A stretch of 47,898 bases of DNA from Planctomycetota bacterium (GTDB lineage Bacteria; Planctomycetota; Planctomycetia; Pirellulales; Lacipirellulaceae). Location of the stretch: assembly GCA_031403315.1 (NCBI GenBank), contig JANNTD010000127.1:1-47898 (forward strand), given 5' to 3'. This document shows positions 15,049 through 31,411 of this stretch, piece after piece; the stretch's first letter is position 1, and every line of letters begins with the position of its first letter. The translations under genes and the position numbers were made by a program. Below the pieces are notes generated by a model that did not search any database, was not told the DNA's origin, and saw only the letters and a list, made by a program, of their open reading frames with translations.

Positions 15049-16404
15049 ATGTCTGCAACCGCAACGCTTGACAATAGTGCGCTCGATAGCGGTGCGCTTG
15101 ACCGGACGACGTCGCTGATTTCGGCGCTGGGGCTCGACGACAGCTTTCAGCCGCAAGAGCCGGCGACGATCAAGGACACGGGGCTCAGCGACGCGCTGGT
15201 CGAGGACCTGATCCTGAAATTTCTCTCGGGCATCGGCTCGGAGAGCGGTCGGGCGATCTCGGACCACGTCTGCCTGCCGATGGCGATTCTCGAGGACCGC
15301 TTCAACGCCCTGCGGCAACGGCAGGAGATCGCGCCCTCGGGCTCCGCGATGCTCGGCGACCACATCTATCGGCTGACCGACGTGGGTCGCGACCGCGCCC
15401 ATCGGGCGTTGCGCGAGTGTGCCTACGTCGGCCCCGCCCCGGTGCCCTTGGACGACTACATCAGCTCGGTGGGGGCCCAGACGATTGCCTCCGAGCGGCC
15501 GCGCAAGGCGCAACTTGAAAAAGCGTTTGCCGACATCCACATCGAGCCCGAAATGCTCTGCCAACTCGGGCCCGCGATCAACGCCGGCAAGGGCATGTTC
15601 ATCTACGGCCCGCCGGGCAACGGCAAAACCACCATCGCCCAGCGGATCACTCGCTGCTTCGGCCAGAACATTCTCATCCCGCACGCGATGGTCGAGGGCG
15701 GCAAGATCATCAAAATGTTCGACGCCTCGTGCCACAAGGCGGTTCGCACCGCGACCGAGAGCCTGTTCCGCACCGCCGAATTTGATCGCCGCTGGATTCG
15801 CATCGAGCGACCGACCGTGGTGGTGGGCGGCGAGCTGACAATGGACAGTTTGGAGCTCAAGCACGACCCGGTCGCCAATGTGAGCGAGGCCTCGCTGCAG
15901 CTCAAGAGCAACTGTGGCTGTTTGCTCATCGACGACTTCGGCCGGCAGCGCGTCAACCCGACCGAGCTGTTGAACCGCTGGATCATCCCGCTCGAAAACC
16001 GCATCGACTACTTGAGCCTTTCGAACGGGCGGAAGATCGAGGTGCCGTTCGAGCAGTTGATTATTTTCTCGACGAACCTCGAGCCGCACGAGCTAGCGGA
16101 CGATGCGTTCCTGCGGCGGATCCCGTTCAAGGTCGAGGTCGGCGACCCGTCGCTGGAAGAGTTTCATTTGCTGTTCCAGATCTTCGCCAAGAAGCTGCAG
16201 GTCGACTGCCCGCGGGCGATGGTCGACTACCTGATTCGCACGCACTACCACGGCGGCAAGCGGCCGCTGCGCCGCTGCCACGCCCGCGATTTGCTCGAGC
16301 AGATCATCTATTTCTGCGCCTACAACGAGGTGCCGCCGCTGATCAACGAGCCGCACCTCGACCAGGCGGTGCGGAACTACTTCACGGCGCTGAAGGGGGA
16401 TTGA
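15049..16404 (+). CDS. AAA+ family ATPase with an unassigned N-terminal domain of about 190 aa
   Basis: Walker A IYGPPGNGKTT, Walker B CLLIDDFG, sensor-like IIFSTNLEP and Arg-rich FLRRIPFK. The N-terminal part (LSDALVEDLILKFL...GDHIYRLTDVGRDRA) may be winged-helix-like. Confidence 0.8.
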   Translation: MSATATLDNSALDSGALDRTTSLISALGLDDSFQPQEPATIKDTGLSDALVEDLILKFLSGIGSESGRAISDHVCLPMAILEDRFNALRQRQEIAPSGSAMLGDHIYRLTDVGRDRAHRALRECAYVGPAPVPLDDYISSVGAQTIASERPRKAQLEKAFADIHIEPEMLCQLGPAINAGKGMFIYGPPGNGKTTIAQRITRCFGQNILIPHAMVEGGKIIKMFDASCHKAVRTATESLFRTAEFDRRWIRIERPTVVVGGELTMDSLELKHDPVANVSEASLQLKSNCGCLLIDDFGRQRVNPTELLNRWIIPLENRIDYLSLSNGRKIEVPFEQLIIFSTNLEPHELADDAFLRRIPFKVEVGDPSLEEFHLLFQIFAKKLQVDCPRAMVDYLIRTHYHGGKRPLRRCHARDLLEQIIYFCAYNEVPPLINEPHLDQAVRNYFTALKGD

Positions 16405-16523
16405 GCGGGCGAGAGCGCGGGTGGGAGACGGCGAGTGGGGGGCGAAGCTCCCGCTGAGCTTCGAACGGGTAGGCGAAAACGGCGCACTCTTCGGTGCTGA
16501 CGGAACAGTGTGTAGCTGACGAA

Positions 16524-16862: not shown

Positions 16863-16873
16863 TCTCCCAGCCC

Positions 16874-17254: not shown

Positions 17255-17458
17255 TCCTCCGCCGGACAGTGTACCACGGGGGTTTGCACGAAAACTAACC
17301 GGCTGCGGAGGCGAAACGCCAAGACAGTCCTCCCAAGAATGAGCAGGGGCGAATCAGCCTCGATGATGAGCTCTGCCGCAGGGCGAAAGTTCTTGTGAGC
17401 TGTAGAGCCTCACCGGCAAACACGCCAGTAGCAGGTCGGCGGGATTGAACGAGGGTGA

Positions 17459-17956
17459 CTACTGCCGAATTTCACGCTGAGGCGTTTGGGGTGCAGTCGC
17501 GGACCAGAGAGAGTCGTATTCGGCAGCGTCGACTTCGCGTTGTTGCATGTTGAGGAAGCCGACGAGGCGTTTGTCGCCGTCGCCAGTCGCTTCGAAGACG
17601 ACCGGCTCGCTGCTGCCCCTCACGTTGCCGGGAACGCCATAGCGGATTTTGAATGGCTGGCCGTCGCGTTCGCTGATGAAGAGCTCGTCGATCTTGGCGG
17701 GATCGATGCCGATGCGGGTTAGTTTGTCCGGGTTGATGCTGTGAATATACTTCTTGAACTGGGCTTCGTCGGCGGGCCCACGCCAATCGTTCTCGGTTTG
17801 GAACGCAAAGTAAAGATTGGCGATCCGCTGCAAGTTCGTTTCGTTGGCTTTGGCGAGCGCGTTGGTCGGGTCCGAGCTATTGGAGCAGCCTGCCATCGCA
17901 ACGATCAGCCAAACGGCAGCGCCGACGACAAGACTTCGAGCGGTAAGTTTTACCAC
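17459..17956 (-). CDS. Putative lipoprotein downstream of the DUF1559 gene
   Basis: GTG 17956 gives MVKLTARSLVVGAAVWLIVAMAGC-SNSS: a basic n-region, hydrophobic core and lipobox-like AMAGC. 25 nt after the DUF1559 stop. The first 137 codons of the listed 302-aa ORF overlap that gene out of frame. Confidence 0.5.
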   Translation of the reverse strand: MVKLTARSLVVGAAVWLIVAMAGCSNSSDPTNALAKANETNLQRIANLYFAFQTENDWRGPADEAQFKKYIHSINPDKLTRIGIDPAKIDELFISERDGQPFKIRYGVPGNVRGSSEPVVFEATGDGDKRLVGFLNMQQREVDAAEYDSLWSATAPQTPQREIRQ

Positions 17957-17981
17957 GATTCGCGTCCGTGAAAACCAAGAA

Positions 17982-19031
17982 CTACAGTGACTCGAGCGAC
18001 GGATTCGATTGATCCGCGCGTTTTCCGAGCATATCAAGTACGAGCACGTCTGCCGATGAAGAGATCGGTCGCGTCGAACCGTCGCCAAAGACGGCACAAA
18101 TGATTCCCGGATGGGCGGAACCAAAGCCAAACTCGTCGGCACGTGTCCGGGATTCATTATCTCCGAGAATAGGATACTCCGGATTTGTCGATGTGGAGCC
18201 GGGAGGCTTAACAGCAAACATTCGCATGATCGGCCAATCTGCTCCTGTGTAGTAGCCGTAAATCTCCCAAAATTGAAAGGCGTTGATCGTGTAATTCGCG
18301 CTCGACACCGCCTTCTCGGCCAACAAGATCGTGTGAGAAGCGCCATCTTCGATAGACTTGAATCCAACTCCCTGAAATTTCCAGACCTGCGGCGGCGTTG
18401 CGATACTAACTTGTCCGCCCTTCACGAGAATTCCAGTCCAAGTCAGATACTGCTCGCTTGTCTTCGGATTATTAGGATCGCTTATTTTCGGTGCTTTATT
18501 GACCTCCCAGGCGAAGCCCGGCCAATTCGGATCAAACCAACTCGCCATGACACCCGCGTAATCGCCGAGTGAGTAGATCGTGGTCGCAATCACAGCAAAA
18601 CGAGGGCCCCTGGACGGGCAATTGAAGAGCGAAACCTGTACCTCCGAAAGACCACTCTTGACAAATCCTGCGTTGGCAGCACTTGTGCCCTTCCTCAAAT
18701 CGTACAAGGACTGCTGCTCGATATTCGGCAGAATTTGATACATCCAACTGGCACCCTCGTATCCAAACGAAGCCTTGGACAATTCGGCGGCGTTGAAGTA
18801 TTGATTTACCGCGCCGCCCGCGGTGGGAAACACCTTTTTCTGTGACTCGAACAAGTGGCAGGCCAGGCCGAGCTGCCGCATGTTGTTGAGACATTGCGAC
18901 CGCCGCGCCGACTCGCGTGCCGCCTGAATTGCGGGGAGCAAGAGCGCAACGAGAATGCCGATGATGGCAATCACCACCAGGAGTTCAACCAAGGTGAAAC
19001 CTGGCGTCCGTGGGACAGGCTTACCATTCAT
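17982..19031 (-). CDS. DUF1559 / H-X9-DG pseudopilin-like protein
   Basis: [30 protein letters not shown] is a prepilin-type cleavage/methylation N-terminus. C-terminal [17 protein letters not shown] gives H-X9-DG. AAGGAG SD before ATG 19031. Confidence 0.85.
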
Positions 19032-19217
19032 TCCCAATGCTCCTTGAGTTTCGCGTTTTGAATTGGCTGTTGGAGGGTCGGTCAAGAGGGGCACATTCGC
19101 TGTCAGCGACATCGGCTGCGCTATTGATGTTGCAATGTCAAAGGTTCGGTCGACGTCGCCGGCGGAGACTGAAAAGTAGGTCGCGGCGCCCCCCGCCGGC
19201 CGCGGCCTCATGCCGCG

Positions 19218-20102
19218 TCAAGTGGCGCGGCGGTAACCCATTAACAGTGTGATGGATGCCGCAATTGCCAAGCAGCAAGAGCCCGGCTCTGGAACTGCAG
19301 CCGCACCGAGACTCCCACTGCCGCCACCGACGAAACTCGATTTCCACAGGTCGTAGTCCGCTGCGACGACGGTTGCGGCGCCGGTGCCGTTTCCATTGAG
19401 CGCCGCGGCGTCGCCGCCCAAATTGTCGCGCCAGGTGGTGTAGTCCGCTGCGTCGACTTGGCTGTCATCGTTGTAGTCGCCCGGAAGTCCCTCCGGTGCA
19501 ATCGTCTCGATTGTGAGGGTGCCCAAGGGACCAGCGTCGGTGATCCAGACGTTAGGTCCTTGGGTGTTGAACCCGTACTGCACATGCCGCCCCGGCTCGG
19601 CGCTCGTATCGAGCGTGACGCTGAACGGGCCGGGAGTGAGCACCATGGTGGTCGTTTCAAACGTTGAGTAGTCCGGAGCAAAATCGCGGATAAAGGCGAT
19701 GGACTCATAAGGACTGACAAACGTGTTGGTAAGCACGGTGCCAGTGAACGTGACCGACTGGCCGGCGAGCGTGTCGTTTTGTTCGACGTATAAGTTGGCG
19801 TCCATCCATTTGTTACCCATCGCGCCGGGTCCGCCGGCTGGGGTGTACCAGAAGGCGTTCGGGTCATCGACGGAATTGGGCGCGAGCGTCAGCGTGGAAC
19901 CGGAGAAATTCGAGACCAGGTCGGCGGTGCCCCAGCCGCTGCCGAAGACGTAGCCAAAGCCATTCTCAGGAAGTTCGAAGACATTCATGAAACCCAGCCA
20001 CGGGGCCGTTGAGTCGACTTCGAAGGTGACCGCTGCGCAGGGTGTGGAAGTCGAGCAAAGCAAAACGCCTCCCACAATCGACCACAAGTATCCGCGTGTC
20101 AT
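19218..20102 (-). CDS. Secreted protein with dockerin-like repeats and PEP-CTERM anchor
   Basis: Signal-like MTRGYLWSIVGGVLLCSTSTPCAA. GDYNDDSQVDAADYTTWRDNLGG and VVAADYDLWKSSF are paired EF-hand/dockerin-like repeats. C-terminal VPEPGSCCLAIAASITLLMGYRRAT. Confidence 0.8.
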   Translation of the reverse strand: MTRGYLWSIVGGVLLCSTSTPCAAVTFEVDSTAPWLGFMNVFELPENGFGYVFGSGWGTADLVSNFSGSTLTLAPNSVDDPNAFWYTPAGGPGAMGNKWMDANLYVEQNDTLAGQSVTFTGTVLTNTFVSPYESIAFIRDFAPDYSTFETTTMVLTPGPFSVTLDTSAEPGRHVQYGFNTQGPNVWITDAGPLGTLTIETIAPEGLPGDYNDDSQVDAADYTTWRDNLGGDAAALNGNGTGAATVVAADYDLWKSSFVGGGSGSLGAAAVPEPGSCCLAIAASITLLMGYRRAT

Positions 20103-20583
20103 GATTCGTATTCCCCAAATTGAAACCGAACAAACAAGTCAAAGGCAAGAAAAACTAGGGTGCTGCAATGGCCGCAAGCCACGAACGGGACCGCCAAGTT
20201 GCATCTCGAGTGAGAAAAAAAGGAGCGAACCGCCGCCAAGCAACCGATCCGCGCCGCCATCGCCGCCGCCGTCGCAGAGAGCGAAAACCAACAAGTCACG
20301 TCACTCGGGCCACTCGAGACAACCCGGGATGCGCCCGCGGAAGTCGGTGCCGAGAAACGTTTGCGAAACAGTTTACAGGATACTATCTCGCTGTTTGTGC
20401 GTCAATTGATTAAGTGATTTTCTGAATAAGGAGGCGTGGGGTGGCCAAAAGTGTCGCGGTGAGCAGGTGGAAGAAACTGTTTCTCGGCCGGGTGGGTTGA
20501 ATTGACGGCTGTTTGAATAGAAGTGGCAGCGCGAATTGGGGAGTGGAAGTCGTGGCCGACGCCGCTACGTGGACCACCAGACT

Positions 20584-22017
20584 TTAAGTGGCGACTTCGG
20601 CGACTTCACCGATCATCGACGGCACGACGAGATACGCCAGCTCGTCGGCCGGCTTGTCGCTGTTGGCGAACGACTCGGCGTGGATCGGGTCGATCATCGA
20701 GAGGAAGCCGTCGCAGGTGAGATAGCCGAGCGGATGGTCGCCGGCGGTGACGACCAGCGTCGCGCAGCCGCGCGAGGAGAAGGCTTCGTAGATTTCCGGA
20801 AAACTGGCATCGAAAGAAATCGTTTCGGGCTGTTCGAGCGGCGCACCCGCTGGAGCGGCTGCCCGACCAACTTGAGTTTCGCCGGCCGCGTGTTCGTCGG
20901 CCGCCACGCCGACCAGCCGGCCCTCGTGATCGACATACGGCCGCACGGGAATGCCCGCGCGGCGGAGCGACTCGGCCAGCTCGCTTTGCTCGGCGTTCTG
21001 CTCGGTATTCTGTTCCAAGAGCGCGGGAAACGGTTCCATGATGTCCTGGGCGACGACGTTGGCGAACGGATTGCCGGTGGCCATTTCCTCCTGCCAGGCG
21101 GCGAGCTCCTTGTTGAACTCGCCGTGCAGGACGACGCAGTCGCCGCCGGAGTGGATGGCCAGGTCGAGCGTCTCCATGGCCTCGTTGAGGAAGTGGTCCG
21201 CATTGATGCCGGCCGCATTGTCTCCGGCTGACCACGGCACGACGGCGCTCGTGAGCGTCGGTCGCGGGATCGACTCGTGATGACTCTCGCGGCTGCCAAA
21301 ATCTTTGGCGAGCGTTTCGGCGACGCCCTTGGCGGCGGCGAGCGATTGGCCCACGAGCAGCGTGGCGAATCGGCCGTCGCCAAAGTAGGCCGAGACGGCA
21401 CTCTCGCCGACGGCCCGCTTGATGGCCCGGGCCGCCGTGCTCACCAGACCGCGGCTCGCGGTCTCGCCGCTCTTGCGTCGGATGCCGACGTACCAATCGA
21501 TCGACGTGACCAACAGCGCGTGCTGCGACGAACCGACTTCGTCGCTGGCCGCGAGCTTGCGCAGTTTGCGGAGCAGGCCGCGCCGCGAATACATGCCGGG
21601 CACCGTGCAGCGCGACGACTGGAACTGCAGCCGGCGCTCGAATTCGAGATAGCGGGCCCCGGTTCGGACGCGGGCTAGCAATTCGCCGCGGCTCACGGGT
21701 GTGCGGAGCGCGTCGTGGGCCCCGGCGGCGTACCAGCCGGCGAAATCGGTGTGCTTCGCCGGGTCGTAGAGAAAGATCCGATAAAGCGGGTTGTCGGAGT
21801 CGTGGGCAAACGTGGCGGCGGTCGGCTCGGCCACGTTGCGGCCGTCGACGATCACGAAGTCGGTGAGCGAATAGCGCCGCCAATGGGCGTCCTGGTCGAA
21901 GTCGTTGGTCGTCTGGACCTTGTACCCGACGGCCTCGAGGACCCAGGAAACTTCATGCAGCAGCGACACGTCTTGCGAGACCACAACAACGTGCAGGGGA
22001 CGGGGATCGGACGACAT
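20584..22017 (-). CDS. Receiver-like - degenerate GGDEF - CBS-pair protein
   Basis: N-terminus LHVVVVSQDVSLL...DFVIVDG is CheY-like. The middle follows GGDEF-domain spacing (MYSRRGLL, LLVTSIDWYVGI, SAYFGDGRFATLL in place of RYGGDEFAILL). The C-terminus has two CBS-like units (VAQDIMEP...VDHEGRLVGV; ATLVVTAGDHPLGYLT). Confidence 0.7.
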   Translation of the reverse strand: MSSDPRPLHVVVVSQDVSLLHEVSWVLEAVGYKVQTTNDFDQDAHWRRYSLTDFVIVDGRNVAEPTAATFAHDSDNPLYRIFLYDPAKHTDFAGWYAAGAHDALRTPVSRGELLARVRTGARYLEFERRLQFQSSRCTVPGMYSRRGLLRKLRKLAASDEVGSSQHALLVTSIDWYVGIRRKSGETASRGLVSTAARAIKRAVGESAVSAYFGDGRFATLLVGQSLAAAKGVAETLAKDFGSRESHHESIPRPTLTSAVVPWSAGDNAAGINADHFLNEAMETLDLAIHSGGDCVVLHGEFNKELAAWQEEMATGNPFANVVAQDIMEPFPALLEQNTEQNAEQSELAESLRRAGIPVRPYVDHEGRLVGVAADEHAAGETQVGRAAAPAGAPLEQPETISFDASFPEIYEAFSSRGCATLVVTAGDHPLGYLTCDGFLSMIDPIHAESFANSDKPADELAYLVVPSMIGEVAEVAT

Positions 22018-22264: not shown

Positions 22265-23437
22265 GTGCGCTCGTCGTCCGACCAAGCTCACCCCCTGCCG
22301 ACCAACACCGTGACCCACATCACGCTTTCGAAAAAGACGACTTCCAAACCGAGTCTCGAGTTCTATTCCGACGGCAACGGCGAACTCCGCCGGGTGACGA
22401 TCGAGAACTTTCCATTTCGCATCGGCCGAGCGGAGACGGCGGACCTGCGCGTCGAATCGGTCGAGGTCTCGCGCGAGCACGTCGAGATCGTCGAGCGGAA
22501 CGGCATGTGGCTGGTCCGCGACTTGGGCAGCACCAACGGCACGCAAGTCAACGGCAAGTCGATCAAGGAGACGCTGCTGGCCGACGGCGACATCCTGCGA
22601 GTCGCCGAGACGGAGCTGACGTTTGTCGCGTCGTCGGCGTCGCAGTTTCAGCGGATGGTGACGCAGCCGATCCAAGCGAAGAAAGCGTCGGCCGCGGCTC
22701 CGAGTTCGCTGGCACCCGAGATCGCCGCCACGCGAATGATGACCGAAGCCACGCTCTGGCAAGCGATCCCGGCCCAATTGTTCGCGGCCACTTCGCTGCG
22801 GCATGGAGTGACGGAAGCCTTTTTTGCGCCGGCGACCGCGAGCGCGCAGCAGTTGCCGCTGTTCGACCAGCCGCACGCGGTGGGTGATCGCTACCGCGAA
22901 CTGGAGCGGATGCGAGCGCTCGAGCTGGCGATCGAACGGGCCGACACGAGCCGCTTGTTTCTCGCCGTGGGTGCCGCAGAAAGCGAGTCGCCGCATCGGC
23001 TGTTTTCCAGTATCAAGCAATTTCAAGGACTCCTGCCGAGCGGTTGGGAGCTGGGCATCACAATCTCGTTGCCGACCGACGTCGACATTTTGCGAATCAC
23101 CGAAATCTACCGCGAGGCGCGGGACCACGGCCTGCTCGTGGCATTTGACGAGTTCCAAGGCAACGGCGGGCAAGTGATGCACTTGGAATCGCTGCTGCCC
23201 GATTACCTGGTGCTGGCCGCGAACATGACGAAGGACCTGACGTCGACGCGGCAACCGCTGCGGAGATTGGAGTCGCTGCTGGCGGCCTGCGAAGAGCTGG
23301 TGATCAAACCGGTGCTGCCGCGCAACGACTCGGGCCACGCCATCGCGTTGTGCCAGGAAATCGGCTTCGACCTGGTGCTGCAATCGGCCACGCGCCGAGC
23401 GGCGCCGCCCGTTGCGGAACTGAGTGCGTCGGTTTAG
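22265..23437 (+). CDS. FHA domain protein with degenerate EAL-like C-terminal domain
   Basis: FPFRIGRAETADLRVESVEVSREHVEIVERNGMWLVRDLGSTNGTQVNG...DGDILRV is a canonical FHA domain. The C-terminus keeps EAL-domain spacing (TEAFFAP, RLFLAVG, LLVAFDEFQGNGGQVMHLESLLPDYLVLA) but lacks most catalytic residues. GTG start assumed; no in-frame ATG precedes the FHA domain. Confidence 0.7.
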   Translation: MRSSSDQAHPLPTNTVTHITLSKKTTSKPSLEFYSDGNGELRRVTIENFPFRIGRAETADLRVESVEVSREHVEIVERNGMWLVRDLGSTNGTQVNGKSIKETLLADGDILRVAETELTFVASSASQFQRMVTQPIQAKKASAAAPSSLAPEIAATRMMTEATLWQAIPAQLFAATSLRHGVTEAFFAPATASAQQLPLFDQPHAVGDRYRELERMRALELAIERADTSRLFLAVGAAESESPHRLFSSIKQFQGLLPSGWELGITISLPTDVDILRITEIYREARDHGLLVAFDEFQGNGGQVMHLESLLPDYLVLAANMTKDLTSTRQPLRRLESLLAACEELVIKPVLPRNDSGHAIALCQEIGFDLVLQSATRRAAPPVAELSASV

Positions 23438-23482
23438 TTGCGGATAGTTTCTCGTCCAAGCGATCGCGAGCGTGTGAACCTC

Positions 23483-26449
23483 ATGTCGACCGGCACCCAA
23501 GCTTGCGACATCGTGCTGCCCGGCTACACGCTAGCCGATCGCATCGGGTCGGGCGGCTACGCCGAGGTGTGGCGCGCCGAGGCGCCGGGCGGCATCCAAA
23601 AAGCGGTCAAGATCGTCTACGGCTACTACGACGATGAATTCGCGTCGCAGGAGCTCAAGGCGCTCGAGCGGATCAAGGGCGTGCGGCATCCGTTCTTGCT
23701 GTCGCTCGAACGATTTGAGATCATCAGCGGCCGGCTGGCGATTCTCACGGAACTGGCCGACATGAGCCTCGACCAGCGGCTCCGCCAATGCCGCGCCGAC
23801 GGTCTCACCGGCATCCCGCGCGACGAACTGCTGCAGTACATGGCCGACGCGGCCGAGGCGCTCGACTTCCTTTCGCAGAAGCACAGCCTGTTGCACCTCG
23901 ACATCAAGCCGGAGAATTTGTTGGTCCTCGGCGATCACATCAAGGTGGCCGACTTCGGGCTGGTGAAGGAGCTGGCGTCGCGGACGCAGAATTCGCTAGT
24001 CTCGGGGATGACGCCGACCTACGCGTCGCCCGAAATGTTCGACGACGAGCCGTCCGCCCACAGCGATCAGTACAGTCTGGCGATCGTGTATCAGGAAATG
24101 CTGGTGGGCACCCTGCCCTTCCCCGGCCGCACCGCCGCGCAACTCGCCAAGCAGCACACGCAGGCCGAGCCGCAGCTGATGGCGCTGCCGGCGGAAGACC
24201 GGCCGGTGATCGCGCGGGCACTGGCGAAGAAGCCCGAAGACCGCTTTCCTTCCTGCAAGGCCTTTATTGACGCGCTGCTGCGTCGCGCGGAGGCAGCGCG
24301 CAATCCGCTGCCAACGGAGTTGCCACGGCCGACTCCTGCTGCGCCGCCGCCATCGGTTCCCGACGAGGGCGACACGAAGCCACCGTCGTTCTCTGCGACA
24401 CTCCGCAGGGCACCTGGACAGTCGTTCGAGGAATCGGATGCGAAGTTCACCCAACCGGTCGTGCGCGGAGAGCAGCCGGTGGAAGTGCTTCGGCCGGTTG
24501 CCGCCGCGCCCGAGCCGTTCGTCCCCGAAGACACGATCGACATCGCGGTGCCGGAGACGAACGCCGCCTTGCGGTGCGAGCAGCCGACGTTATACGTCGC
24601 GCTCGGTGGCGTGGGGATTCAAGTGCTTTGTCGATTGCGGGCGCTCGCCGCGTCGCGCGGCCAATCGAATGACGCTTACGAAGCGGCCGAGGCAATCGCA
24701 CTCGATACCGATCGCGACGAACTGCGCGAAGCCTGCTCGAGCCGCTGGAAGTGGCCGCTGGTGTCCGACGACACGCTGCACCTGCCGCTGCGGCTGCCCA
24801 AGAGTTACGACAATTCGCGCGAGATCCTCGGCTGGGTAAGTCGCCGCTGGCTGTACAATATTCCGCGGTCGCTGGAGACGCGCGGCTATCGCCCGTTGGG
24901 TCGCGTCGCGCTCGTGGACCACTCGCGACAGGTGTTCGCGCTGGTGGATCAAAAGCTTCAGCGCCTGGCGACGTTTGCCGATTCGGCCGACGCGGCGGGC
25001 GATGCTCGTGACTCCACGATCAAGATTGTGCTCTTGGCCGGGATGGGCGGCGGTACGGGCGCCGGCATGGCGATCGACGTCGCCAACGCGGTGAGGTCAC
25101 TAGCCGCCACCCGCGGGCTCAAGGTGGAGGTCCAAGGCTTCTTGATCTGCACCTGTTTCGGCGGCGCCAATTCGTCGCCGCTCGTGGCCGCAAATACTTA
25201 TTCGCTGCTCACGGAACTGAATCATGCGACGGCCGTGGGCAACGGCAGCGCGAGTGAGGCGGCGGTAAAAGCCAATCGGTTTGAATCGCGCGAGGCACCG
25301 TTCGACTGCGTCTACTGCGTGCCGGCTCGTGCCCGGACATCGGACTCGCAGGGCGCGGACGCGCTCGACACATTGGCCAAGTATCTGGCCCTCGAATCAA
25401 TGCCCGACGCCCGGGCGGTGATTCGCTCCTGCCGCACCGCGCAGACGCCGCGCGAGCAATCGCGGGGCCGGTCGCTTTCGCTCAAGAAGCTGGGCTTCGC
25501 ATCGCTCGCGGATCGCAAGCACGAATTCATCCGCGAGCTGGCGAACGATCTCGCCGAAGCGATCAAACGACACTGGCTGGCGAAGGACAACAGCGCCGAT
25601 TGGGAGCGGCTCGTCCGCAACGAGCAACAAGCCGCGAGCGTACCGAAGTTGGCAACCGCGACCGAGGGCGAGCCAGGCGCGCCGCCGGTCGTGCTGCCGG
25701 TGAACGACGCGTCGCCGCTGGCGCTCCGCGGTCGATTCAAAGACCACATGTCGCTCGAGTTTGCCAGTGAAGTGCTGGTCGCGATTCAGCATCAGCTCGA
25801 CGCCCGCGACGATCGCGGCCGGCCGCTAATTCTGCCGCGCGACGCCAAGCAGATCGCCGACGCGGCTCGTGGCGTGTTGGCTGCGCTCGTCGTCCACGTG
25901 AAACACCAAACCGGCGGCGCTGCACGATTCGTCGGTTCGCCGGTGCTGCGCAATTTGATCACCGCCGGCAGCCAGCGCGTGCTCGGTCAAGCAGTAGAAA
26001 AATTCGACCCGAAGCAACCCGAACGATTTCTACCCGTCGAAGCGATCGATGAGCTGCTTCAGGCGGGGTGTCGGGCCCTGCTCGAAGAAAGCCTCGCCCA
26101 GCCGGAACTCGCCGCGGCACTCACGGCACTCATCGAGCTCGACCAGGCGACGGCCCGCACGATCGACCATGCGACCACCGATCTGCTTCAATGTGGCTGC
26201 GACCGGCGCACGCTGTTGGTCGTGCCGCAGGACCAGTCGCAGAGCGCGGCGGCGGAAAAGCTGCTGGCCGCGCGGCCGATGGCGGCCGTCGTTCCGGCCG
26301 CCGTCGAAGACGTGCTCGTGGTCTCGGAAGAGGCCGGTATCTCGCCGCGTTCGCTCGCCCTGGGGCTGGAACGCGTGTTCCCCGGCATCGCCGACGCCGC
26401 CCGCCGGCTGCTCACGCGGATCGACGTCGAGTGGCAGAGCCTGGTTTGA
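23483..26449 (+). CDS. Ser/Thr protein kinase fused to a tubulin/FtsZ-superfamily-like (Tubulin_2-type) module
   Basis: Kinase motifs: IGSGGYAEVW, AVKIV, HLDIKPENLL, ADFGL, ASPEMF. A Pro-rich linker follows. The second module then has TLYVALGGVGIQVLCRL, RGYRPLGRVAL, LLAGMGGGTGAGMAIDVA (GGGTGAG at 25046-25066) and ANTYSLLTELN. ATG 23483 preferred over TTG 23438. Confidence 0.75.
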   Translation: MSTGTQACDIVLPGYTLADRIGSGGYAEVWRAEAPGGIQKAVKIVYGYYDDEFASQELKALERIKGVRHPFLLSLERFEIISGRLAILTELADMSLDQRLRQCRADGLTGIPRDELLQYMADAAEALDFLSQKHSLLHLDIKPENLLVLGDHIKVADFGLVKELASRTQNSLVSGMTPTYASPEMFDDEPSAHSDQYSLAIVYQEMLVGTLPFPGRTAAQLAKQHTQAEPQLMALPAEDRPVIARALAKKPEDRFPSCKAFIDALLRRAEAARNPLPTELPRPTPAAPPPSVPDEGDTKPPSFSATLRRAPGQSFEESDAKFTQPVVRGEQPVEVLRPVAAAPEPFVPEDTIDIAVPETNAALRCEQPTLYVALGGVGIQVLCRLRALAASRGQSNDAYEAAEAIALDTDRDELREACSSRWKWPLVSDDTLHLPLRLPKSYDNSREILGWVSRRWLYNIPRSLETRGYRPLGRVALVDHSRQVFALVDQKLQRLATFADSADAAGDARDSTIKIVLLAGMGGGTGAGMAIDVANAVRSLAATRGLKVEVQGFLICTCFGGANSSPLVAANTYSLLTELNHATAVGNGSASEAAVKANRFESREAPFDCVYCVPARARTSDSQGADALDTLAKYLALESMPDARAVIRSCRTAQTPREQSRGRSLSLKKLGFASLADRKHEFIRELANDLAEAIKRHWLAKDNSADWERLVRNEQQAASVPKLATATEGEPGAPPVVLPVNDASPLALRGRFKDHMSLEFASEVLVAIQHQLDARDDRGRPLILPRDAKQIADAARGVLAALVVHVKHQTGGAARFVGSPVLRNLITAGSQRVLGQAVEKFDPKQPERFLPVEAIDELLQAGCRALLEESLAQPELAAALTALIELDQATARTIDHATTDLLQCGCDRRTLLVVPQDQSQSAAAEKLLAARPMAAVVPAAVEDVLVVSEEAGISPRSLALGLERVFPGIADAARRLLTRIDVEWQSLV

Positions 26450-27953: not shown

Positions 27954-29456
27954 CTATTCGTCGGTCGCCAACGGCACGGCGACAATTCCGTACATGTTCA
28001 AGTCGTCGTGCGGGGTCTCGGTGGCGCCCAAGCGGACCGGCCCCGGACTCTCGACCTCTCGAACCCAGACAGAGAGCACGTCGTCGACGCTAACCCCCGC
28101 GCCCGCGCCCGCGGCGACACCCTGGCTGAGCACGCCGTTATACATCCAGGGACCGCCGTCGACGCCGATCTTGTCGCCGGTATCGCGGAAGTTCTCACGC
28201 AACCACAGTGGCGCGGCGATGCGGTCGTCGAACAAGATGTAGAGCTTGCACGGCTCCTCGAGCGTGACGATGATCTCAATGTCTTTGCGACACTTGTCGT
28301 TGTTGAAGGTCTTCACGTAGTCGCCGCCCAGCAAGTATTTAGGCATGCCCGACGGATCGGTGCCGTTCCATTCGTGCGATTGGCGGTCGACAAACGCGCG
28401 AGCGTCTTCTTGCATTCCGGCGCGGACGATTTCGTAGTAATTCCAAGCCGTTTCGCGTTGGATGTTGTCGCGGACCGACGAGATGATGGCGGGCCGGAGC
28501 GAATTCGCCACGGGCGTCAGTAAATCGTCGGAGAATCGCTGGTCGGAGATCGAAACGATGCGGCTGATCGTGCCGTAGGCGTCGAATCGCATCGCCTCCC
28601 CGGTAAAGAGCCGGCGCTGCTGCTCGGCGCCCCCTTCCTCGAGCTGGTAGTTGAGATCGACCGATCCCTCGAAGACGACGACGTCGGTGGCGCCGGCGTC
28701 GTCGACCTCGATGCCGAGCTCCGTCCCGAGGTCGATCACGGTAGCACGCGGCGTCAGCACAGAGAAGCCTTCGGCTCCTTTGGCGATCTTGGCGGTGAGC
28801 TTGCCCAAGAGAGCCCGCCCGCGCATGTCGGAGATCACCTCGAACAGCGCCGGGCCGTGGAGCGTGAGCACGGTGCCGTTGTCGTAGGTCAAACGCAACT
28901 TGCCGCGAGCCACGCGAATCATGTCGTTGCAGTAGATGTCGCTGCGCTGGGCGTCACTGTGGTGATCGAGCGACCATTGGCAGTCGGATGTCTCGAGCAC
29001 CACCTGGGCCAAGACCGTGGGCGGCGCGGTTCGATCCACGATGTCTGCCGGCGGTCGGGCGACGGTTTCTCGCGCCGTACGCGGATACCAAACGAAGGCG
29101 GCGGCTACTGTCAGGCCGGCGGCGATGAAAGCAGCGAACGCCAACCGTTGGCGATTTGTGGTTGCTCGACGACTTCGACCAGACACGGCGTCCGACGCCG
29201 CCGGCCGGGGCCAGTCGCTGGAATCGCAGAACGAAGGCACGACGGATTGAAGGTATTCCTTGGCCGCGACTTCGCCGTGGATGCCTGCGTGAACTCCCAT
29301 GTAGGCGATGTAAATCGCGCGGGCCTCACGGCTCTGCTTGAGCTCGCTCTGAAGTTGTTCCAGCTCCTCGTCGCCGATGCTGCCGTCGCACCAAGCGGAG
29401 ATCAGGCGCCGCAGTTGCTCTTGGTTGAATCGAATTGGCGAACCGGCTTCGGCCAT
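27954..29456 (-). CDS. FecR-family transmembrane anti-sigma factor with a large C-terminal sensor region
   Basis: N-terminal LISAWCDGSIGDEELEQL, TM LAFAAFIAAGLTVAAAFVW, and FecR beta-domain (RGKLRLTYDNGTVLTLHGPALFEV...VLTPRATVIDLGTELGIEV...VVVFEGSVDL). Starts 10 nt after the sigma gene; its stop lies 15 nt upstream of the next gene's start codon. Confidence 0.8.
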   Translation of the reverse strand: MAEAGSPIRFNQEQLRRLISAWCDGSIGDEELEQLQSELKQSREARAIYIAYMGVHAGIHGEVAAKEYLQSVVPSFCDSSDWPRPAASDAVSGRSRRATTNRQRLAFAAFIAAGLTVAAAFVWYPRTARETVARPPADIVDRTAPPTVLAQVVLETSDCQWSLDHHSDAQRSDIYCNDMIRVARGKLRLTYDNGTVLTLHGPALFEVISDMRGRALLGKLTAKIAKGAEGFSVLTPRATVIDLGTELGIEVDDAGATDVVVFEGSVDLNYQLEEGGAEQQRRLFTGEAMRFDAYGTISRIVSISDQRFSDDLLTPVANSLRPAIISSVRDNIQRETAWNYYEIVRAGMQEDARAFVDRQSHEWNGTDPSGMPKYLLGGDYVKTFNNDKCRKDIEIIVTLEEPCKLYILFDDRIAAPLWLRENFRDTGDKIGVDGGPWMYNGVLSQGVAAGAGAGVSVDDVLSVWVREVESPGPVRLGATETPHDDLNMYGIVAVPLATDE

Positions 29457-29466
29457 GGGAATTTAC

Positions 29467-30024
29467 CTACTTCGACCCCGACGTCGGATGCGCATCGCGG
29501 GCGATGGCCAGCTCGACGCAACGATACAGCGACTCGCGGATGCGCACCAAGGAACTATAGACCGTGCTCAGCGGCCGGCCAAGTTGCTCGGCGATCTGAG
29601 CCACGGTGATTTCCGAGCTATAGCGGGCACTGAGCAGCCAGCGGTCCTGTTCGCTGAGCTTCTTCATGCAATCGGGAAGGGCGGTCCGACGGCGATCGTT
29701 GTCGTCGGCGTGCTCCAGGTATTCTTCGGCGAGTGTGTTGATCAGGGCCTCGTCAAATTGCAGTTTGTCGGTCGCCGCCATCCGTCGAAAGCGAAGCACT
29801 TCAATCAGTGCCACGCCGCAGGCCCAGCGGAAGAAATCGCGCGTCGGGTCAAATGTCGCCCGTTTCTTCCACAAGGCGATGCTGGCTTCTTGAAGCACGT
29901 CGTCGGCGTGAGTGCAGTCGCGCACCAGGCTGAAGATATAGGCGCGCAGTCGCAACTGGCTTTGGGCAAATAACTGCACAAAACGATCGTCGGGCGATCG
30001 GTCCTGGTTTGGTTCCGTCTCCAT
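29467..30024 (-). CDS. ECF (group IV) RNA polymerase sigma factor
   Basis: 185 aa from METEPNQ, with GGAGG SD. Region 2: LRAYIFSLVRDCTHADDVLQEASIALWKK..FFRWACGVA. Region 4: LSEQDRWLLSARYSSEITVAQIAEQLGRPLSTVYSSLVRIR. The upstream 131 codons of the listed ORF have no family match. Confidence 0.85.
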   Translation of the reverse strand: METEPNQDRSPDDRFVQLFAQSQLRLRAYIFSLVRDCTHADDVLQEASIALWKKRATFDPTRDFFRWACGVALIEVLRFRRMAATDKLQFDEALINTLAEEYLEHADDNDRRRTALPDCMKKLSEQDRWLLSARYSSEITVAQIAEQLGRPLSTVYSSLVRIRESLYRCVELAIARDAHPTSGSK

Positions 30025-30262
30025 CACTCCTCCGCCGCGCGAGTAGCTCCACAAGTTATCCGCCATCAGGGCCCAAAAATTCCAGGCAAGAATCGGCGAA
30101 ATCCCCAGATTTGTGGCCCCTGGGTAACGGTCGACAAATCTGACCATTTTGGGGGATTTTCGTTCGTAATCCTGGCTCCAGTCGGCGGAATAGTTACGGG
30201 CCAGACGGTGTCTGGGATCGGTTGGATTTCCATTTGCGTTAGTTCGAGCCCGAGGAGCAACC

Positions 30263-31411
30263 ATGGCGGCGAGACGGACCAACCGGCGGTGCGCCTTTAC
30301 ACTTGTTGAATTGCTGGTCGTGATTGCGATCATCGGGATTCTGGTCGCCCTGTTGTTGCCGGCGATCCAGGCGGCCCGCGAAGCTGCTCGTCGGTCGCAG
30401 TGCAAGAACAACCTCAAGCAAGTCGGCCTGGCGACGTTGAACTTTCACGATTCGAAGAAGTACTTTCCGCTCGGCGGGACGGGCGCGTGGCCGATCTATG
30501 ACTACTACTTCACCGGTGGCCGGTCGAACGGGCCGCCGACACAGGGTTTGGGCTGGCCATTTCAGCTCATGCCGTTTATCGAGGAACAGGCGGCCCAGCA
30601 GAATGCAGCCGCCGTCGCCGACGGCACGCGGGCCGGTCTCAACGCGATCACTGCCAATCCGATCGAAGGCTACAACTGCCCTTCGCGTCGCGGGCCGACA
30701 CGACATTTCGACGCCACCGAAAATCTCTCCACGTGGCTGATGGATTACGCGGCGGCGAATCCCGGTCCGACGCGCGCCGAGAGCGCCAGCACCGATTCCG
30801 GAAACTCCGATCTGCCGAAGGATTTCAATCAGTTGCTCAACGATGCCGCTTGGGAGGCCCAGAGCGGGCCAGATGTCGGGTTCTTGTTCAATGGTTGCAA
30901 TGAATGTCGCGGGCGCCTTGATCCGGGTTGCGTGGCCAGCGGCGTCCGTTGGCCGAACGCAACCTTTCGCGGCATCGTCCAGCGGAGCGATTGGAAGGCC
31001 TTTGCCGCGAGCAATTTTAACAATTGTCACTACGGTTGGGGCCGTACGGTGAAAATCGCGCAGGTTACGGACGGCACCAGCAAAACCATGTGGGTTAGCG
31101 AAAAGCGGCTCGAGCCCAAGAGTTACCAAGAAGGCGCCGGCTGGGACGACCGCGGTTGGACCGACGGTTGGGACTACGACATCATCCGCTCGACGATGGC
31201 GCCCTTGGCCGCGGATGCCGACCTGGCCGACACCGCAAACCGCGAGCGTGCTCAGTTGTCATACGGTTTCGGCGCGGCCCATCCCGGCGCCGTGAACGCA
31301 GTGTTCGCCGACGGGTCGGTGCAGTCGATTTCGTACGACGTGGACCGAGAACTATTTAACGTACTAGCGCATCGCGACGACGGCGAAGTCGTCAAAGCAG
31401 ACGCATTCTGA
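30263..31411 (+). CDS. DUF1559 / H-X9-DG pseudopilin-like protein
   Basis: [37 protein letters not shown] and C-terminal [17 protein letters not shown] (H-X9-DG). Confidence 0.85.

What the first reader, a model, noticed from the sequence alone, without database searches (positions are those of the whole stretch)
23483..26449. Active-looking Ser/Thr kinase fused to a tubulin/FtsZ-superfamily-like GTPase module
The N-terminal 290 residues carry every canonical Hanks motif: Gly loop, AVK, HLD..N, DFG, SPE. After a Pro-rich linker the protein has, in order: TLYVALGGVGIQVLCRL (Gly-rich T1-like loop), RGYRPLGRVAL, LLAGMGGGTGAGMAIDVA and ANTYSLLTELN. GGGTGAG (25046-25066) fits the tubulin signature [SAG]-G-G-T-G-[SA]-G. 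The motif order is what I recall for the poorly studied Pfam Tubulin_2 family.

The genomic context is planctomycete-like, and that lineage generally lacks canonical FtsZ. A kinase covalently coupled to a possibly polymerising GTPase would therefore be an unusual cytoskeleton or signalling element. The roughly 350 C-terminal residues are helical and unassigned.
Basis: partly seen in the sequence, partly recalled or inferred. Interest (0 to 1): 0.8.

Follow-up and report, generated by a model that had tools for sequence, protein, structure and literature searches.

The report
Kinase fused to FtsZ-like GTPase
The gene really does encode an intact Ser/Thr kinase joined to a divergent tubulin/FtsZ-like GTP-binding domain, but this fusion has been on record for planctomycetes since 2010 (the FtsZl1 / Pfam Tubulin_2 family), so it is a correct reading of a known protein whose function is still untested.

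Summary
The CDS at 23483-26449 (+) encodes 988 aa, and every quoted motif sits at the stated position. Pfam gives Pkinase (aa 15-273, E 1e-29) and Tubulin_2/PF13809 (aa 370-674, E 3e-29, 103 bits against a cut-off of 27). A confident AlphaFold model of aa 355-988 (pLDDT 86) matches tubulin, CetZ, FtsZ and TubZ in Foldseek (probability 1.0).

It is not new. Makarova and Koonin (2010) defined this family as FtsZl1 and noted the planctomycete members with an N-terminal kinase. Two later papers (2023, 2024) repeat this, and NCBI annotates orthologues as "tubulin-like domain-containing protein". Hundreds of orthologues exist in Pirellulales.

- The kinase catalytic residues are invariant, and it is a non-RD (HLD) kinase.
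- No conserved T7-type catalytic acidic residue was found, and there is no FtsZ_C or Tubulin_C domain.
- The last ~80 residues form an alpha/beta subdomain whose motifs recur across the wider family.
- The gene sits next to an FHA-EAL-like gene in all 15 distinct loci examined, next to a divergent REC/GGDEF-like/CBS gene in 14 of 15, and near a classical AAA+ ATPase gene in most.

The most likely function is a phospho-regulated, GTP-dependent assembly or signalling module, not a canonical FtsZ. That function is inferred, not shown.

The parts
23483..26449 (+). Complete CDS, 988 aa: Hanks-type kinase, Pro/Thr-rich linker, FtsZl1/Tubulin_2 domain, helical region, C-terminal alpha/beta subdomain
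   Evidence: ORF list. Translation and motif coordinates. Pfam. 348 homologues, nearly all ~985 aa with the same architecture.
23525..24301 (+). Ser/Thr protein kinase domain (aa 15-273). It is a non-RD type, with HLD instead of HRD.
   Evidence: Pkinase E 1.1e-29. Catalytic residues are invariant in 53 orthologues, mean column identity 0.86. HLD is also invariant in 20 more distant kinase-bearing relatives.
24302..24577 (+). Variable Pro-rich linker (aa 274-365) with conserved Thr islands: T298 (D-T-K-P), T306 and T323 (T-Q-P). These are candidate autophosphorylation and FHA-docking sites (inferred).
   Evidence: 21% Pro. Mean column identity is 0.43, yet T306 is conserved in 51/53, T323 in 45/53 and T298 in 42/53 orthologues.
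24590..25504 (+). FtsZl1 / Pfam Tubulin_2 GTP-binding domain (aa 370-674), with secondary-structure elements in the order S1-H1-S2-H2-S3-(insert)-T3-H3-S4-T4-H4-S5-H5-S6-H7-like-S7
   Evidence: PF13809 E 3.2e-29. AlphaFold secondary structure. Foldseek hits to tubulin, CetZ, FtsZ and TubZ.
24605..24622 (+). T1-like Gly loop, GGVGIQ (aa 375-380)
   Evidence: G375 is invariant in 41 diverse relatives. It follows the first beta strand in the model.
24836..24913 (+). Most conserved block of the family, SRRWLYNIPRSLETRGYRPLGRVAL (aa 452-477). It ends in a T3-like G-x-R-P-x-G-R loop before helix H3.
   Evidence: Nearly every residue is invariant in 58 orthologues. R454, R455, W456, P461, G468, R470, L472, G473 and R474 are invariant in 41 diverse relatives.
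25046..25066 (+). T4 tubulin-signature loop, GGGTGAG (aa 522-528)
   Evidence: Coordinates. This is the only stretch that aligns to FtsZ by sequence. G523, G524, G526 and G528 are conserved family-wide.
25361..25438 (+). H7-like helix pair (aa 627-652) with conserved A632, Y634, L635 and C650-R651. It is followed by a variable loop (aa 652-666) that has no conserved acidic T7 residue.
   Evidence: Model helices. Column counts in 41 relatives.
25505..26197 (+). Helical region (aa 675-905), the least conserved ordered part. It has no Pfam family.
   Evidence: No Pfam hit at E<=1. Predicted helices with mostly high pLDDT. Mean column identity 0.49.
26198..26449 (+). Conserved C-terminal alpha/beta subdomain (aa 906-988, beta-alpha-beta-beta-alpha), with motifs CG.DRRTL..VP and R..TR.D..W
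   Evidence: Model strands at aa 907-915, 935-939 and 945-953. G905, R909, P915, E949, A959, R975, R979, D981 and W984 are >=90% conserved in relatives that share 24-41% overall identity.
22265..23437 (+). Upstream co-directional partner gene: an FHA domain plus a degenerate EAL-like domain (390 aa). It ends 45 nt before the kinase ATG.
   Evidence: FHA E 2.5e-17, EAL E 4e-4 and below its cut-off. The FHA pThr-binding residues G54-R55, S69-R70-x-H72 and N91-G92 are invariant. It is adjacent to the kinase-tubulin gene in all 15 distinct loci examined, including a rearranged one.
20584..22017 (-). Divergently transcribed conserved neighbour: a receiver-like N-terminus, a degenerate GGDEF domain (GDGRF) and a CBS-like C-terminus (477 aa)
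   Evidence: GGDEF E 4.5e-5, just below its cut-off, and a weak CBS hit. A PleD-like match appears. In P. staleyi the orthologue hits Response_reg, GGDEF and CBS. It is present in 14 of 15 loci. The motif is degenerate in all of them.
15049..16404 (+). AAA+ ATPase (451 aa) and possible fourth member of the module. It lies 4.2 kb from the GGDEF-like gene in this window but directly adjacent in most related loci.
   Evidence: It is 57% identical to the gene whose stop overlaps the start of the kinase-tubulin gene in L016. It is adjacent in 11 of the 15 distinct related loci (L001-L004, L006, L008-L011, L015, L016). Walker A GPPGNGKTT, Walker B IDD, sensor N343 and R356/R357 are invariant. The nearest solved sequences are VCP/Cdc48/AFG2, Msp1 and spastin.

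Best explanation
Shown: the gene encodes a soluble cytoplasmic protein of the FtsZl1 / Pfam Tubulin_2 family. It belongs to the planctomycete (Pirellulales) subgroup that carries an N-terminal, catalytically intact, non-RD Hanks-type Ser/Thr kinase.

Inferred mechanism:
1. The divergent tubulin-like domain binds GTP through its conserved T1, T3 and T4 loops.
2. Nucleotide binding drives self-association into a dimer, oligomer or non-canonical polymer. The conserved C-terminal alpha/beta subdomain may take part.
3. Self-association brings the kinase domains together.
4. The kinases then phosphorylate conserved Thr residues in the flexible linker and/or in partner proteins.
5. The phospho-Thr sites are read by the FHA domain of the co-transcribed FHA-EAL-like protein.
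6. The neighbouring REC/GGDEF-like/CBS protein supplies regulatory input, and the AAA+ ATPase may remodel or take apart the assembly.

On this view it is a phospho-regulated assembly or signalling module, possibly acting in membrane or cell-envelope remodelling as proposed for FtsZl1. It is not a canonical treadmilling FtsZ ring.
For: Family identity:
- Pkinase and Tubulin_2 both score far above their cut-offs.
- The AlphaFold model has pLDDT 85.8 and pTM 0.81. Its Foldseek hits are tubulins, CetZ 3zid, Odin tubulin 7evh, FtsZ 2vap and TubZ 3v3t/3m89, at E 1.6e-5 to 1e-4 and probability 1.00.
- Pirellula staleyi Psta_0486, listed as FtsZl1 in the founding paper, is recovered as a relative (P0185, E 9e-59) with the same neighbouring genes.

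Active kinase:
- Catalytic residues are invariant, and the kinase is the most conserved domain.

GTP-binding loops:
- They are conserved family-wide.

FHA link:
- The FHA-EAL-like gene is adjacent in every locus. This includes L016, where the gene order is rearranged to AAA+ / kinase-tubulin / FHA-EAL with overlapping or abutting genes.
- The FHA pThr-binding residues are invariant.
- Conserved Thr islands sit in an otherwise variable linker.

Not a canonical FtsZ:
- There is no conserved T7 acidic residue.
- There is no FtsZ_C or Tubulin_C hit, and PF00091 is below its cut-off.
- This agrees with the published analysis.

Soluble protein:
- No hydrophobic segment is long enough to be a transmembrane helix.
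Against: - Nothing here shows GTP binding, self-association, autophosphorylation or FHA binding. Every mechanistic step is inferred from conservation and gene neighbourhood.
- The vWA, OmpA and P-loop GTPase partners that led to the membrane-remodelling proposal for FtsZl1 are absent from this neighbourhood.
- The EAL-like and GGDEF-like domains are degenerate in this lineage, so any c-di-GMP link is uncertain.
- The AAA+ gene is not adjacent in P. staleyi or in this window. It is also far more widespread than the fusion, so its linkage could be plain synteny.
Confidence: 0.4

Rival explanations
1. The tubulin-like domain is a monomeric or dimeric guanine-nucleotide sensor that simply switches the attached kinase on or off. 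No higher-order assembly forms, and the protein is an ordinary signalling kinase with an unusual regulatory domain.
For: - There is no conserved T7 catalytic residue and no canonical C-terminal activation domain.
- The literature already doubts that FtsZl1 forms filaments.
- Planctomycete kinases are fused to many different sensor domains. Two more are in this window: kinase/FGE-sulfatase at 3836-6484 and kinase/TPR at 40095-42824.
- The tubulin-like domain is the commonest partner of cytoplasmic kinases in the phylum.
- The kinase is more conserved than the tubulin-like part.
Against: - The extremely conserved surface block SRRWLYNIPRSLETRGYRPLGR and the conserved C-terminal subdomain suggest protein-protein interfaces beyond a nucleotide pocket.
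- The conserved AAA+ neighbour would fit an assembly that needs taking apart.
- Every characterised tubulin/FtsZ-fold protein I know of self-associates. This rests on my own knowledge and was not tested here.
Confidence: 0.3
2. It is a true cytomotive filament that replaces the missing FtsZ in planctomycete budding or division, with the kinase regulating filament dynamics.
For: - Planctomycetes lack ftsZ and their division mechanism is unknown.
- The fold is tubulin/FtsZ-like, with intact T1, T3 and T4 loops.
- The gene is single-copy, vertically conserved and syntenic across Pirellulales.
- The adjacent AAA+ ATPase has sequence neighbours that include spastin and Vps4/CdvC-type enzymes, which act on cytoskeletal or ESCRT polymers.
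Against: - The T7 loop and the FtsZ/tubulin C-terminal domain are not recognisable.
- In other phyla FtsZl1 coexists with FtsZ, so the family as a whole is not a division protein.
- A 2024 survey did not find the tubulin-like kinase partner in 'Ca. Uabimicrobium' or Saltatorellus, which also lack FtsZ.
- The tubulin-like part evolves faster than its neighbours (38-71% identity against 72-88% for the kinase). That is unlike a core division protein.
Confidence: 0.12
3. It is part of an anti-phage or conflict system, in which a kinase effector is coupled to an NTPase sensor.
For: The kinase domain matches PADLOC models mad6, PD-T4-6 and MkoA and NCBIfam MADS6. The AAA+ neighbour gives weak hits to anti-phage ATPase models.
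Against: - All of those hits cover only the generic kinase fold or the Walker A region, and they fall far below the curated cut-offs.
- No PADLOC model matches the tubulin-like part or the neighbouring genes.
- The locus is syntenic and vertically inherited among Pirellulales rather than patchy. The flanking genes are housekeeping or glycoside-hydrolase types.
Confidence: 0.04
4. The GGGTGAG match is coincidental Gly-rich sequence and there is no tubulin-like domain.
For: PF00091 (Tubulin) scores only 24 bits, below its cut-off of 33. A profile search of PDB sequences finds only the T4 loop of FtsZ, at E>1. hhalign against the single E. coli FtsZ sequence was uninformative.
Against: Tubulin_2 scores 103 bits over 305 residues. 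All 41 diverse relatives match Tubulin_2. A confident model gives 318 Foldseek hits at E<=1e-3; the 50 listed are all tubulin-superfamily entries.
Confidence: 0.01

Closest known systems
FtsZl1 family (Makarova and Koonin 2010, Biol Direct 5:33), equivalent to Pfam Tubulin_2 (PF13809): planctomycete subgroup with an N-terminal protein kinase. Examples are Pirellula staleyi Psta_0486, Rhodopirellula baltica RB10367 and Blastopirellula marina gi 87309437.
   Same: - The architecture is the same: kinase, linker, FtsZ-like domain, then a long, largely helical C-terminal part.
- The conserved loops are the same.
- The FHA(-EAL) neighbour is the same, and is listed in that paper's Additional file 5.
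   Different: - The window protein is shorter than Psta_0486 (988 aa against 1206).
- It shares only about 32% identity with Psta_0486 in the tubulin-like part.
- Its middle region is predicted as a compact helical domain rather than the extended coiled coil described for typical FtsZl1.
- The vWA, OmpA and GTPase partners typical of FtsZl1 operons in other phyla are absent.
Canonical FtsZ, tubulin, CetZ and TubZ (PF00091 with FtsZ_C or Tubulin_C)
   Same: - The Rossmann-like GTPase fold is shared, with the T1 Gly loop, a T3-like loop and the GGGTG[SA]G T4 signature.
- Foldseek probability is 1.0 against tubulins, CetZ 3zid, FtsZ 2vap and TubZ 3v3t.
   Different: - Sequence identity is only 9-14%, and TM-scores normalised to the target are 0.34-0.48.
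- PF00091 is below its cut-off and there is no C-terminal domain hit.
- A large, strongly conserved insert lies between S3 and T3.
- No conserved T7 acidic residue exists.
- About 310 extra C-terminal residues and an N-terminal kinase are present.
Actinobacterial and Firmicute division-regulating Hanks kinases with FHA partners (for example PknA/PknB with FhaA, FhaB/FipA and GarA)
   Same: A Hanks kinase is encoded next to an FHA-domain protein whose pThr-binding residues are intact. The nearest solved kinase sequences are mycobacterial PknB and PknA.
   Different: - Those kinases are membrane receptors with PASTA or other extracellular sensors, and they phosphorylate a separate FtsZ.
- Here the kinase is soluble, non-RD and covalently joined to the tubulin-like domain.
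- Here the FHA protein carries a degenerate EAL domain.

Membership tests
Hanks-type (eukaryotic-like) Ser/Thr protein kinase | Pfam Pkinase match above the gathering score | tested here: met
   104.1 bits against a cut-off of 31.7, aa 15-273
Hanks-type (eukaryotic-like) Ser/Thr protein kinase | Catalytic residues: Gly loop, VAIK Lys, alpha-C Glu, catalytic Asp and Asn, DFG Asp, APE Glu | tested here: met
   G22/G24-25, K43, E57, D140, N145, D157 and E184 are present. They are invariant in 53 orthologues and in 20 distant relatives.
Hanks-type (eukaryotic-like) Ser/Thr protein kinase | Arg of the HRD motif (RD kinase, dependent on activation-loop phosphorylation) | tested here: not met
   The motif is H138-L139-D140, and Leu is invariant. 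This makes it a non-RD kinase. That does not exclude membership of the kinase family.
FtsZl1 / Pfam Tubulin_2 (PF13809) | Profile match above the gathering score over most of the model | tested here: met
   102.7 bits against a cut-off of 27, profile positions 1-334 of 356, aa 370-674. 41 of 41 diverse relatives also match.
FtsZl1 / Pfam Tubulin_2 (PF13809) | Homology to founding members listed by Makarova and Koonin | tested here: met
   P0185 is P. staleyi ADB15174.1 (1206 aa, Psta_0486, listed as FtsZl1). It was recovered at E 8.9e-59 and has conserved neighbours.
FtsZl1 / Pfam Tubulin_2 (PF13809) | N-terminal FtsZ-like domain followed by an extended coiled coil and an alpha-helical C-terminal domain | tested here: inconclusive
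   A long helical region follows the GTPase domain. However, the model is compact (pTM 0.81) and ends in an alpha/beta subdomain. No coiled-coil predictor was run.
FtsZl1 / Pfam Tubulin_2 (PF13809) | Operon partners: vWA protein, OmpA-family protein, divergent P-loop GTPase | tested here: not met
   None is found next to the gene in the window or in related loci. The only case is an OmpA gene 5 kb away in L002. The founding paper describes these partners as frequent, not universal.
Canonical tubulin/FtsZ superfamily GTPase (PF00091 type, polymerising) | Tubulin signature [SAG]-G-G-T-G-[SA]-G (T4) and T1 Gly loop | tested here: met
   GGGTGAG at aa 522-528 and GGVG at aa 375-378, both conserved family-wide.
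Canonical tubulin/FtsZ superfamily GTPase (PF00091 type, polymerising) | PF00091 match above the gathering score | tested here: not met
   24 bits against a cut-off of 33, covering only aa 510-540.
Canonical tubulin/FtsZ superfamily GTPase (PF00091 type, polymerising) | Tubulin/FtsZ three-dimensional fold | tested here: met
   Foldseek probability 1.00, E down to 1.6e-5, 315-364 aligned columns against tubulins, CetZ, FtsZ and TubZ. The model has pLDDT 85.8.
Canonical tubulin/FtsZ superfamily GTPase (PF00091 type, polymerising) | T7 synergy loop with a conserved catalytic Asp or Glu after helix H7 | tested here: not met
   The loop after the H7-like helix (aa 652-666) is variable and gapped in 41 relatives. 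E658 is conserved only among close orthologues. This matches.
Canonical tubulin/FtsZ superfamily GTPase (PF00091 type, polymerising) | FtsZ_C or Tubulin_C second domain | tested here: inconclusive
   There is no Pfam hit.
Canonical tubulin/FtsZ superfamily GTPase (PF00091 type, polymerising) | GTP-dependent head-to-tail polymerisation and GTP hydrolysis | not testable with these tools
   This needs biochemistry or EM.
FHA phospho-Thr reader (upstream gene 22265-23437) | FHA profile match plus the G-R, S-x-x-H and N-G pThr-binding residues | tested here: met
   63.5 bits against a cut-off of 20.7. G54, R55, S69, R70, H72, N91 and G92 are invariant across distant orthologues.
EAL c-di-GMP phosphodiesterase (upstream gene, C-terminal half) | Catalytic motifs EAL, DDFGTG, K-x-D, EGVE and QG | tested here: not met
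   The window protein has EAF and DEFQGN and lacks the rest, at 20 bits against a cut-off of 31. The motifs are intact only in the L016 orthologue.
GGDEF diguanylate cyclase (gene 20584-22017) | GG[DE]EF active-site motif | tested here: not met
   The motif is GDGRF in the window, and GDGTF, GDDHF or QEGEF in orthologues. The score is 23.7 bits against a cut-off of 23.8.
AAA+ ATPase, classical clade (gene 15049-16404) | Walker A, Walker B, sensor 1 and Arg finger | tested here: met
   GPPGNGKTT at aa 187-195, D295-D296, N343 and R356-R357 are invariant in 30 homologues. PDB sequence hits are VCP, Cdc48, AFG2, Msp1 and spastin, at E 1e-8 to 4e-4. Assignment to a specific clade is not secure because the structure model failed (pLDDT 49).

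The most novel reading that the evidence does not exclude
In Pirellulales the kinase-FtsZl1 protein is the core of a conserved four-part machine. The other parts are the FHA-EAL-like phospho-reader, the REC/GGDEF-like/CBS regulator and a classical AAA+ ATPase. The machine builds and dismantles a non-canonical, phosphorylation-controlled tubulin-fold polymer used for FtsZ-independent budding, division or envelope remodelling. The AAA+ enzyme would play a spastin- or Vps4-like disassembly role.
Probability: 0.12. Interest if true: 0.8.

Novelty: already known. Interest (0 to 1): 0.3.

Why it matters
How planctomycetes divide without FtsZ is still unknown. This kinase-tubulin-like fusion is one of the few tubulin-fold proteins they have, so it remains a legitimate experimental target. 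No functional study turned up in the literature searched.

The finding itself does not open that question. The family, the fusion and even the FHA neighbour have been on record since 2010.

- The kinase is intact and of the non-RD type.
- The GTP-binding loops are intact.
- No canonical T7 residue is present.
- A conserved C-terminal subdomain exists.
- The conserved gene set (FHA-EAL-like, REC/GGDEF-like/CBS, AAA+) names the partners to test.

Tried and rejected
1. A profile search of PDB sequences with the full alignment A1 was swamped by kinases. Repeating it with the kinase-free alignment A2 found only the T4 loop of FtsZ at E>1. No member of this family has a solved structure detectable by sequence.

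2. hhalign of the 58-sequence profile against the single E. coli FtsZ sequence gave meaningless alignments in both global and local mode (probability <1%). I ran no further search on building an FtsZ profile, because the published HHpred result already covers this.

3. The AlphaFold model of the AAA+ neighbour failed (pLDDT 49, pTM 0.37, from a shallow alignment at 68-92% identity). No fold search was run on it.

4. The scan of genome contigs used very specific peptide patterns and returned only 9 close Pirellulales loci. It therefore says nothing about the wider taxonomic spread.

5. PADLOC hits were rejected as evidence for a defence role, because they cover only the generic kinase fold.

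6. The long antisense ORFs overlapping the gene (for example 23531-23938 and 24091-24543 on the minus strand) were dismissed as by-products of 63-66% G+C. They have no homology support, and the plus-strand frame has high GC3 (0.80).

7. The in-frame TTG at 23438 was rejected as the start codon, because orthologues begin at the MST... that corresponds to the ATG at 23483.

Full report
**1. Observation**

The window holds an ORF at 23438..26449 on the plus strand.

This includes GGGTGAG at nt 25046-25066.
- The linker (aa 274-365) is 21% proline.
- No hydrophobic segment is long enough for a membrane helix.
- Long ORFs on the opposite strand are what a 63-66% G+C region produces by chance. The plus frame has GC3 of 0.80.

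**2. What the domains are**

Pfam gives two strong hits:
- Pkinase, aa 15-273, E 1.1e-29.
- Tubulin_2 (PF13809), aa 370-674, E 3.2e-29, 102.7 bits against a cut-off of 27, covering profile positions 1-334 of 356.

The classical Tubulin model PF00091 reaches only 24 bits (cut-off 33), and only over the T4 loop. Nothing matches aa 675-988.

In 53 full-length orthologues the kinase is the best-conserved part, with mean column identity 0.86. K43, E57, D140, K142, N145, D157-F-G and P183-E184 are all invariant. The HRD arginine is invariantly Leu, so this is a non-RD kinase. The same holds in 20 more distant kinase-bearing relatives.

**3. Structure**

I predicted aa 355-988 with AlphaFold from a 58-sequence alignment. 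The model reached pLDDT 85.8 and pTM 0.81.

Foldseek against the PDB returned 318 hits at E<=1e-3; the 50 listed are all tubulin-superfamily entries:
- alpha-, beta- and gamma-tubulins
- CetZ 3zid
- Odinarchaeota tubulin 7evh
- FtsZ 2vap
- TubZ 3v3t and 3m89

These hits have probability 1.00, E from 1.6e-5 to about 1e-4, 9-14% identity and target-normalised TM-scores of 0.34-0.48.

The secondary-structure elements follow the FtsZ order S1-H1-S2-H2-S3-...-H3-S4-(T4)-H4-S5-H5-S6. After these come two short helices (aa 627-652) and a strand (aa 667-674).

Three features differ from canonical family members:
- A very strongly conserved insert precedes the T3-like loop: SRRWLYNIPRSLETRGYRPLGR, nearly invariant.
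- The loop where T7 should lie (aa 652-666) is variable and gapped in 41 diverse relatives, with no conserved acidic residue. E658 is conserved only among close orthologues.
- The chain continues with about 230 helical residues and ends in a beta-alpha-beta-beta-alpha subdomain (aa ~906-988). The motifs of that subdomain are conserved even in relatives with 24-41% overall identity.

Model coordinates are not exposed by the tools. I therefore could not decide whether those terminal strands complete a tubulin-type second domain.

By sequence, no member of this family has a solved structure.

**4. How common it is, and what is already known**

A search with the kinase-free part found 348 close homologues. 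Nearly all are about 985 aa with Pkinase plus Tubulin_2. Those that carry an organism name are nearly all from Pirellulales or Lacipirellulaceae, and NCBI calls them "tubulin-like domain-containing protein".

An exhaustive profile search found 2361 cluster representatives at E<=1e-3 and 531 at E<=1e-30. Many are 1100-1200 aa with the tubulin-like domain starting near residue 330-400.

Of 41 diverse relatives, all match Tubulin_2 and 25 match Pkinase. Several of the kinase-less ones are partial gene calls. Named members include Pirellula staleyi ADB15174.1 and Bythopirellula goksoeyrii QEG34452.1.

The literature settles the novelty question:
- Makarova and Koonin (2010) defined the FtsZl1 family and wrote that four planctomycete members "possess an additional N-terminal PK domain".
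- Their supplementary tables list Psta_0486, RB10367, a Blastopirellula protein and two Gemmata proteins. They also list the FHA-phosphodiesterase neighbour Psta_0487.
- Santana-Molina et al. (2023) equate FtsZl1 with Pfam Tubulin_2 and repeat the kinase remark.
- A 2024 survey of planctomycete kinases states that the tubulin-like domain is the most common partner of purely cytoplasmic kinases.
- Reviews note that the function of FtsZl1 is unknown and that it may not form filaments.

My searches of this paper library found no experimental study.

**5. Neighbourhood**

The gene immediately upstream (22265-23437, +) encodes an FHA domain (E 2.5e-17) plus a weak EAL-like domain. Divergent from it, 20584-22017 (-) encodes a receiver-like, degenerate GGDEF and CBS-like protein.

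This arrangement recurs widely:
- It is present in all twelve close loci, L001-L012, of which L001 and L007 are the same contig, so eleven distinct loci.
- It is present in the complete genomes of P. staleyi and B. goksoeyrii, where the tubulin-like part is only about 32% identical.
- In a further Pirellulales MAG (L016) the order is rearranged to AAA+ ATPase, then kinase-tubulin, then FHA-EAL, on one strand with overlapping or abutting genes.

So the FHA-EAL linkage survives rearrangement.

The state of the partner domains is as follows:
- The FHA pThr-binding residues are invariant.
- The EAL catalytic motifs are intact in L016 but degenerate in P. staleyi and more so in the window.
- The GGDEF motif is degenerate everywhere.

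The AAA+ gene of L016 has a 57%-identical homologue in the window at 15049-16404.
- This gene lies beside the cluster in 11 of the 15 distinct related loci. In the window it is separated from the cluster by a 4.2-kb stretch that includes a DUF1559 gene.
- It has invariant Walker A, Walker B, sensor and arginine residues.
- Its nearest solved sequences are VCP/Cdc48/AFG2, Msp1 and spastin.
- It is also far more widespread than the fusion.
- It is not adjacent in P. staleyi.
- Its AlphaFold model failed.

I therefore treat its membership of the module as tentative.

The vWA, OmpA and GTPase partners typical of FtsZl1 operons in other phyla are absent here.

**6. Mechanism**

Shown:
- The kinase is intact and non-RD.
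- The tubulin-fold domain has conserved T1, T3 and T4 loops.
- No conserved T7 residue and no canonical C-terminal domain hit were found.
- The protein is soluble.
- It has an obligate genomic association with an FHA protein.
- Thr islands (T298, T306, T323) are conserved in an otherwise variable linker.

Inferred:
1. GTP-dependent self-association of the tubulin-like part brings kinase domains together.
2. The kinases phosphorylate the linker or partner proteins.
3. The FHA-EAL-like protein docks on the phospho-Thr sites.
4. The REC/GGDEF-like/CBS protein supplies regulatory input, and the AAA+ ATPase may remodel the assembly.

I put this at 0.4. The rivals are:
- A non-assembling nucleotide-sensor kinase, at 0.3.
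- A genuine FtsZ-replacing division filament, at 0.12.
- A defence system, at 0.04.
- A coincidental Gly-rich match, which is refuted.

**7. Verdict**

The object is a member of a family, and of an architecture, that is already published and annotated, so I rate its novelty as "already known" and its interest at 0.3.

Some interest remains. The function is experimentally untouched and planctomycete division is unexplained. The conserved partner set defined here gives concrete experiments.

Noticed in passing
window 15049-16404 (+); L016 5526-7004; L002 3819-5216; L003 3798-5195; L015 1742-3088: A highly conserved AAA+ ATPase (451 aa) lies next to the kinase-tubulin cluster in 11 of the 15 distinct related loci, and overlaps the start of the kinase-tubulin gene in L016. 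It has no Pfam family above cut-off. Its nearest solved sequences are VCP/Cdc48/AFG2, Msp1 and spastin. The N-terminal ~120 residues look like a winged-helix domain in an otherwise poor model. It might act on the tubulin-like protein.
   Followed up: partly
window 22265-23437 (+) and 20584-22017 (-): The conserved partner genes carry c-di-GMP-type domains that are degenerate in this lineage: EAL-like with EAF/DEFQGN, and GGDEF-like with GDGRF. The EAL motifs are intact in the L016 orthologue, which suggests a phosphodiesterase that became a non-catalytic domain.
   Followed up: partly
window 3836-6484 (+) and 40095-42824 (-): Two more Ser/Thr kinase fusion proteins lie in the same 48-kb window: kinase plus FGE-sulfatase domain (882 aa) and kinase plus TPR repeats (909 aa). 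This illustrates how commonly planctomycete kinases are fused to other modules.
   Followed up: no
window 16405-20583 (ORFs 17459-18367 -, 17982-19211 -, 19218-20102 -): A stretch holding a DUF1559/N-terminal-methylation gene and two unassigned ORFs separates the AAA+ gene from the rest of the cluster in this window. In most related loci the AAA+ gene abuts the GGDEF-like gene, so this looks like an insertion. L012 shares the ORF at 17459-18367.
   Followed up: partly
window aa 668 of the kinase-tubulin protein (nt 25484-25486): The window protein has Lys where 40 of 41 diverse relatives have Arg, in the conserved L-R-T/S-F-G strand after the T7-like loop. The significance is unknown.
   Followed up: no
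window 27954-30417 (-), 30263-31411 (+), 32678-33385 (+), 2671-3942 (-): The surrounding genes are typical planctomycete content: an ECF sigma factor with a FecR-like anti-sigma protein, a second DUF1559 gene, a PEP-CTERM protein and a type II/IV secretion ATPase. Several glycoside hydrolases and a sulfatase lie elsewhere in the window. None of these is conserved next to the kinase-tubulin gene in other loci.
   Followed up: no
L014 (Pirellula staleyi CP001848.1) 11770-12558 (-): A second, stand-alone FHA-domain gene lies about 1 kb downstream of the kinase-tubulin gene in P. staleyi.
   Followed up: no
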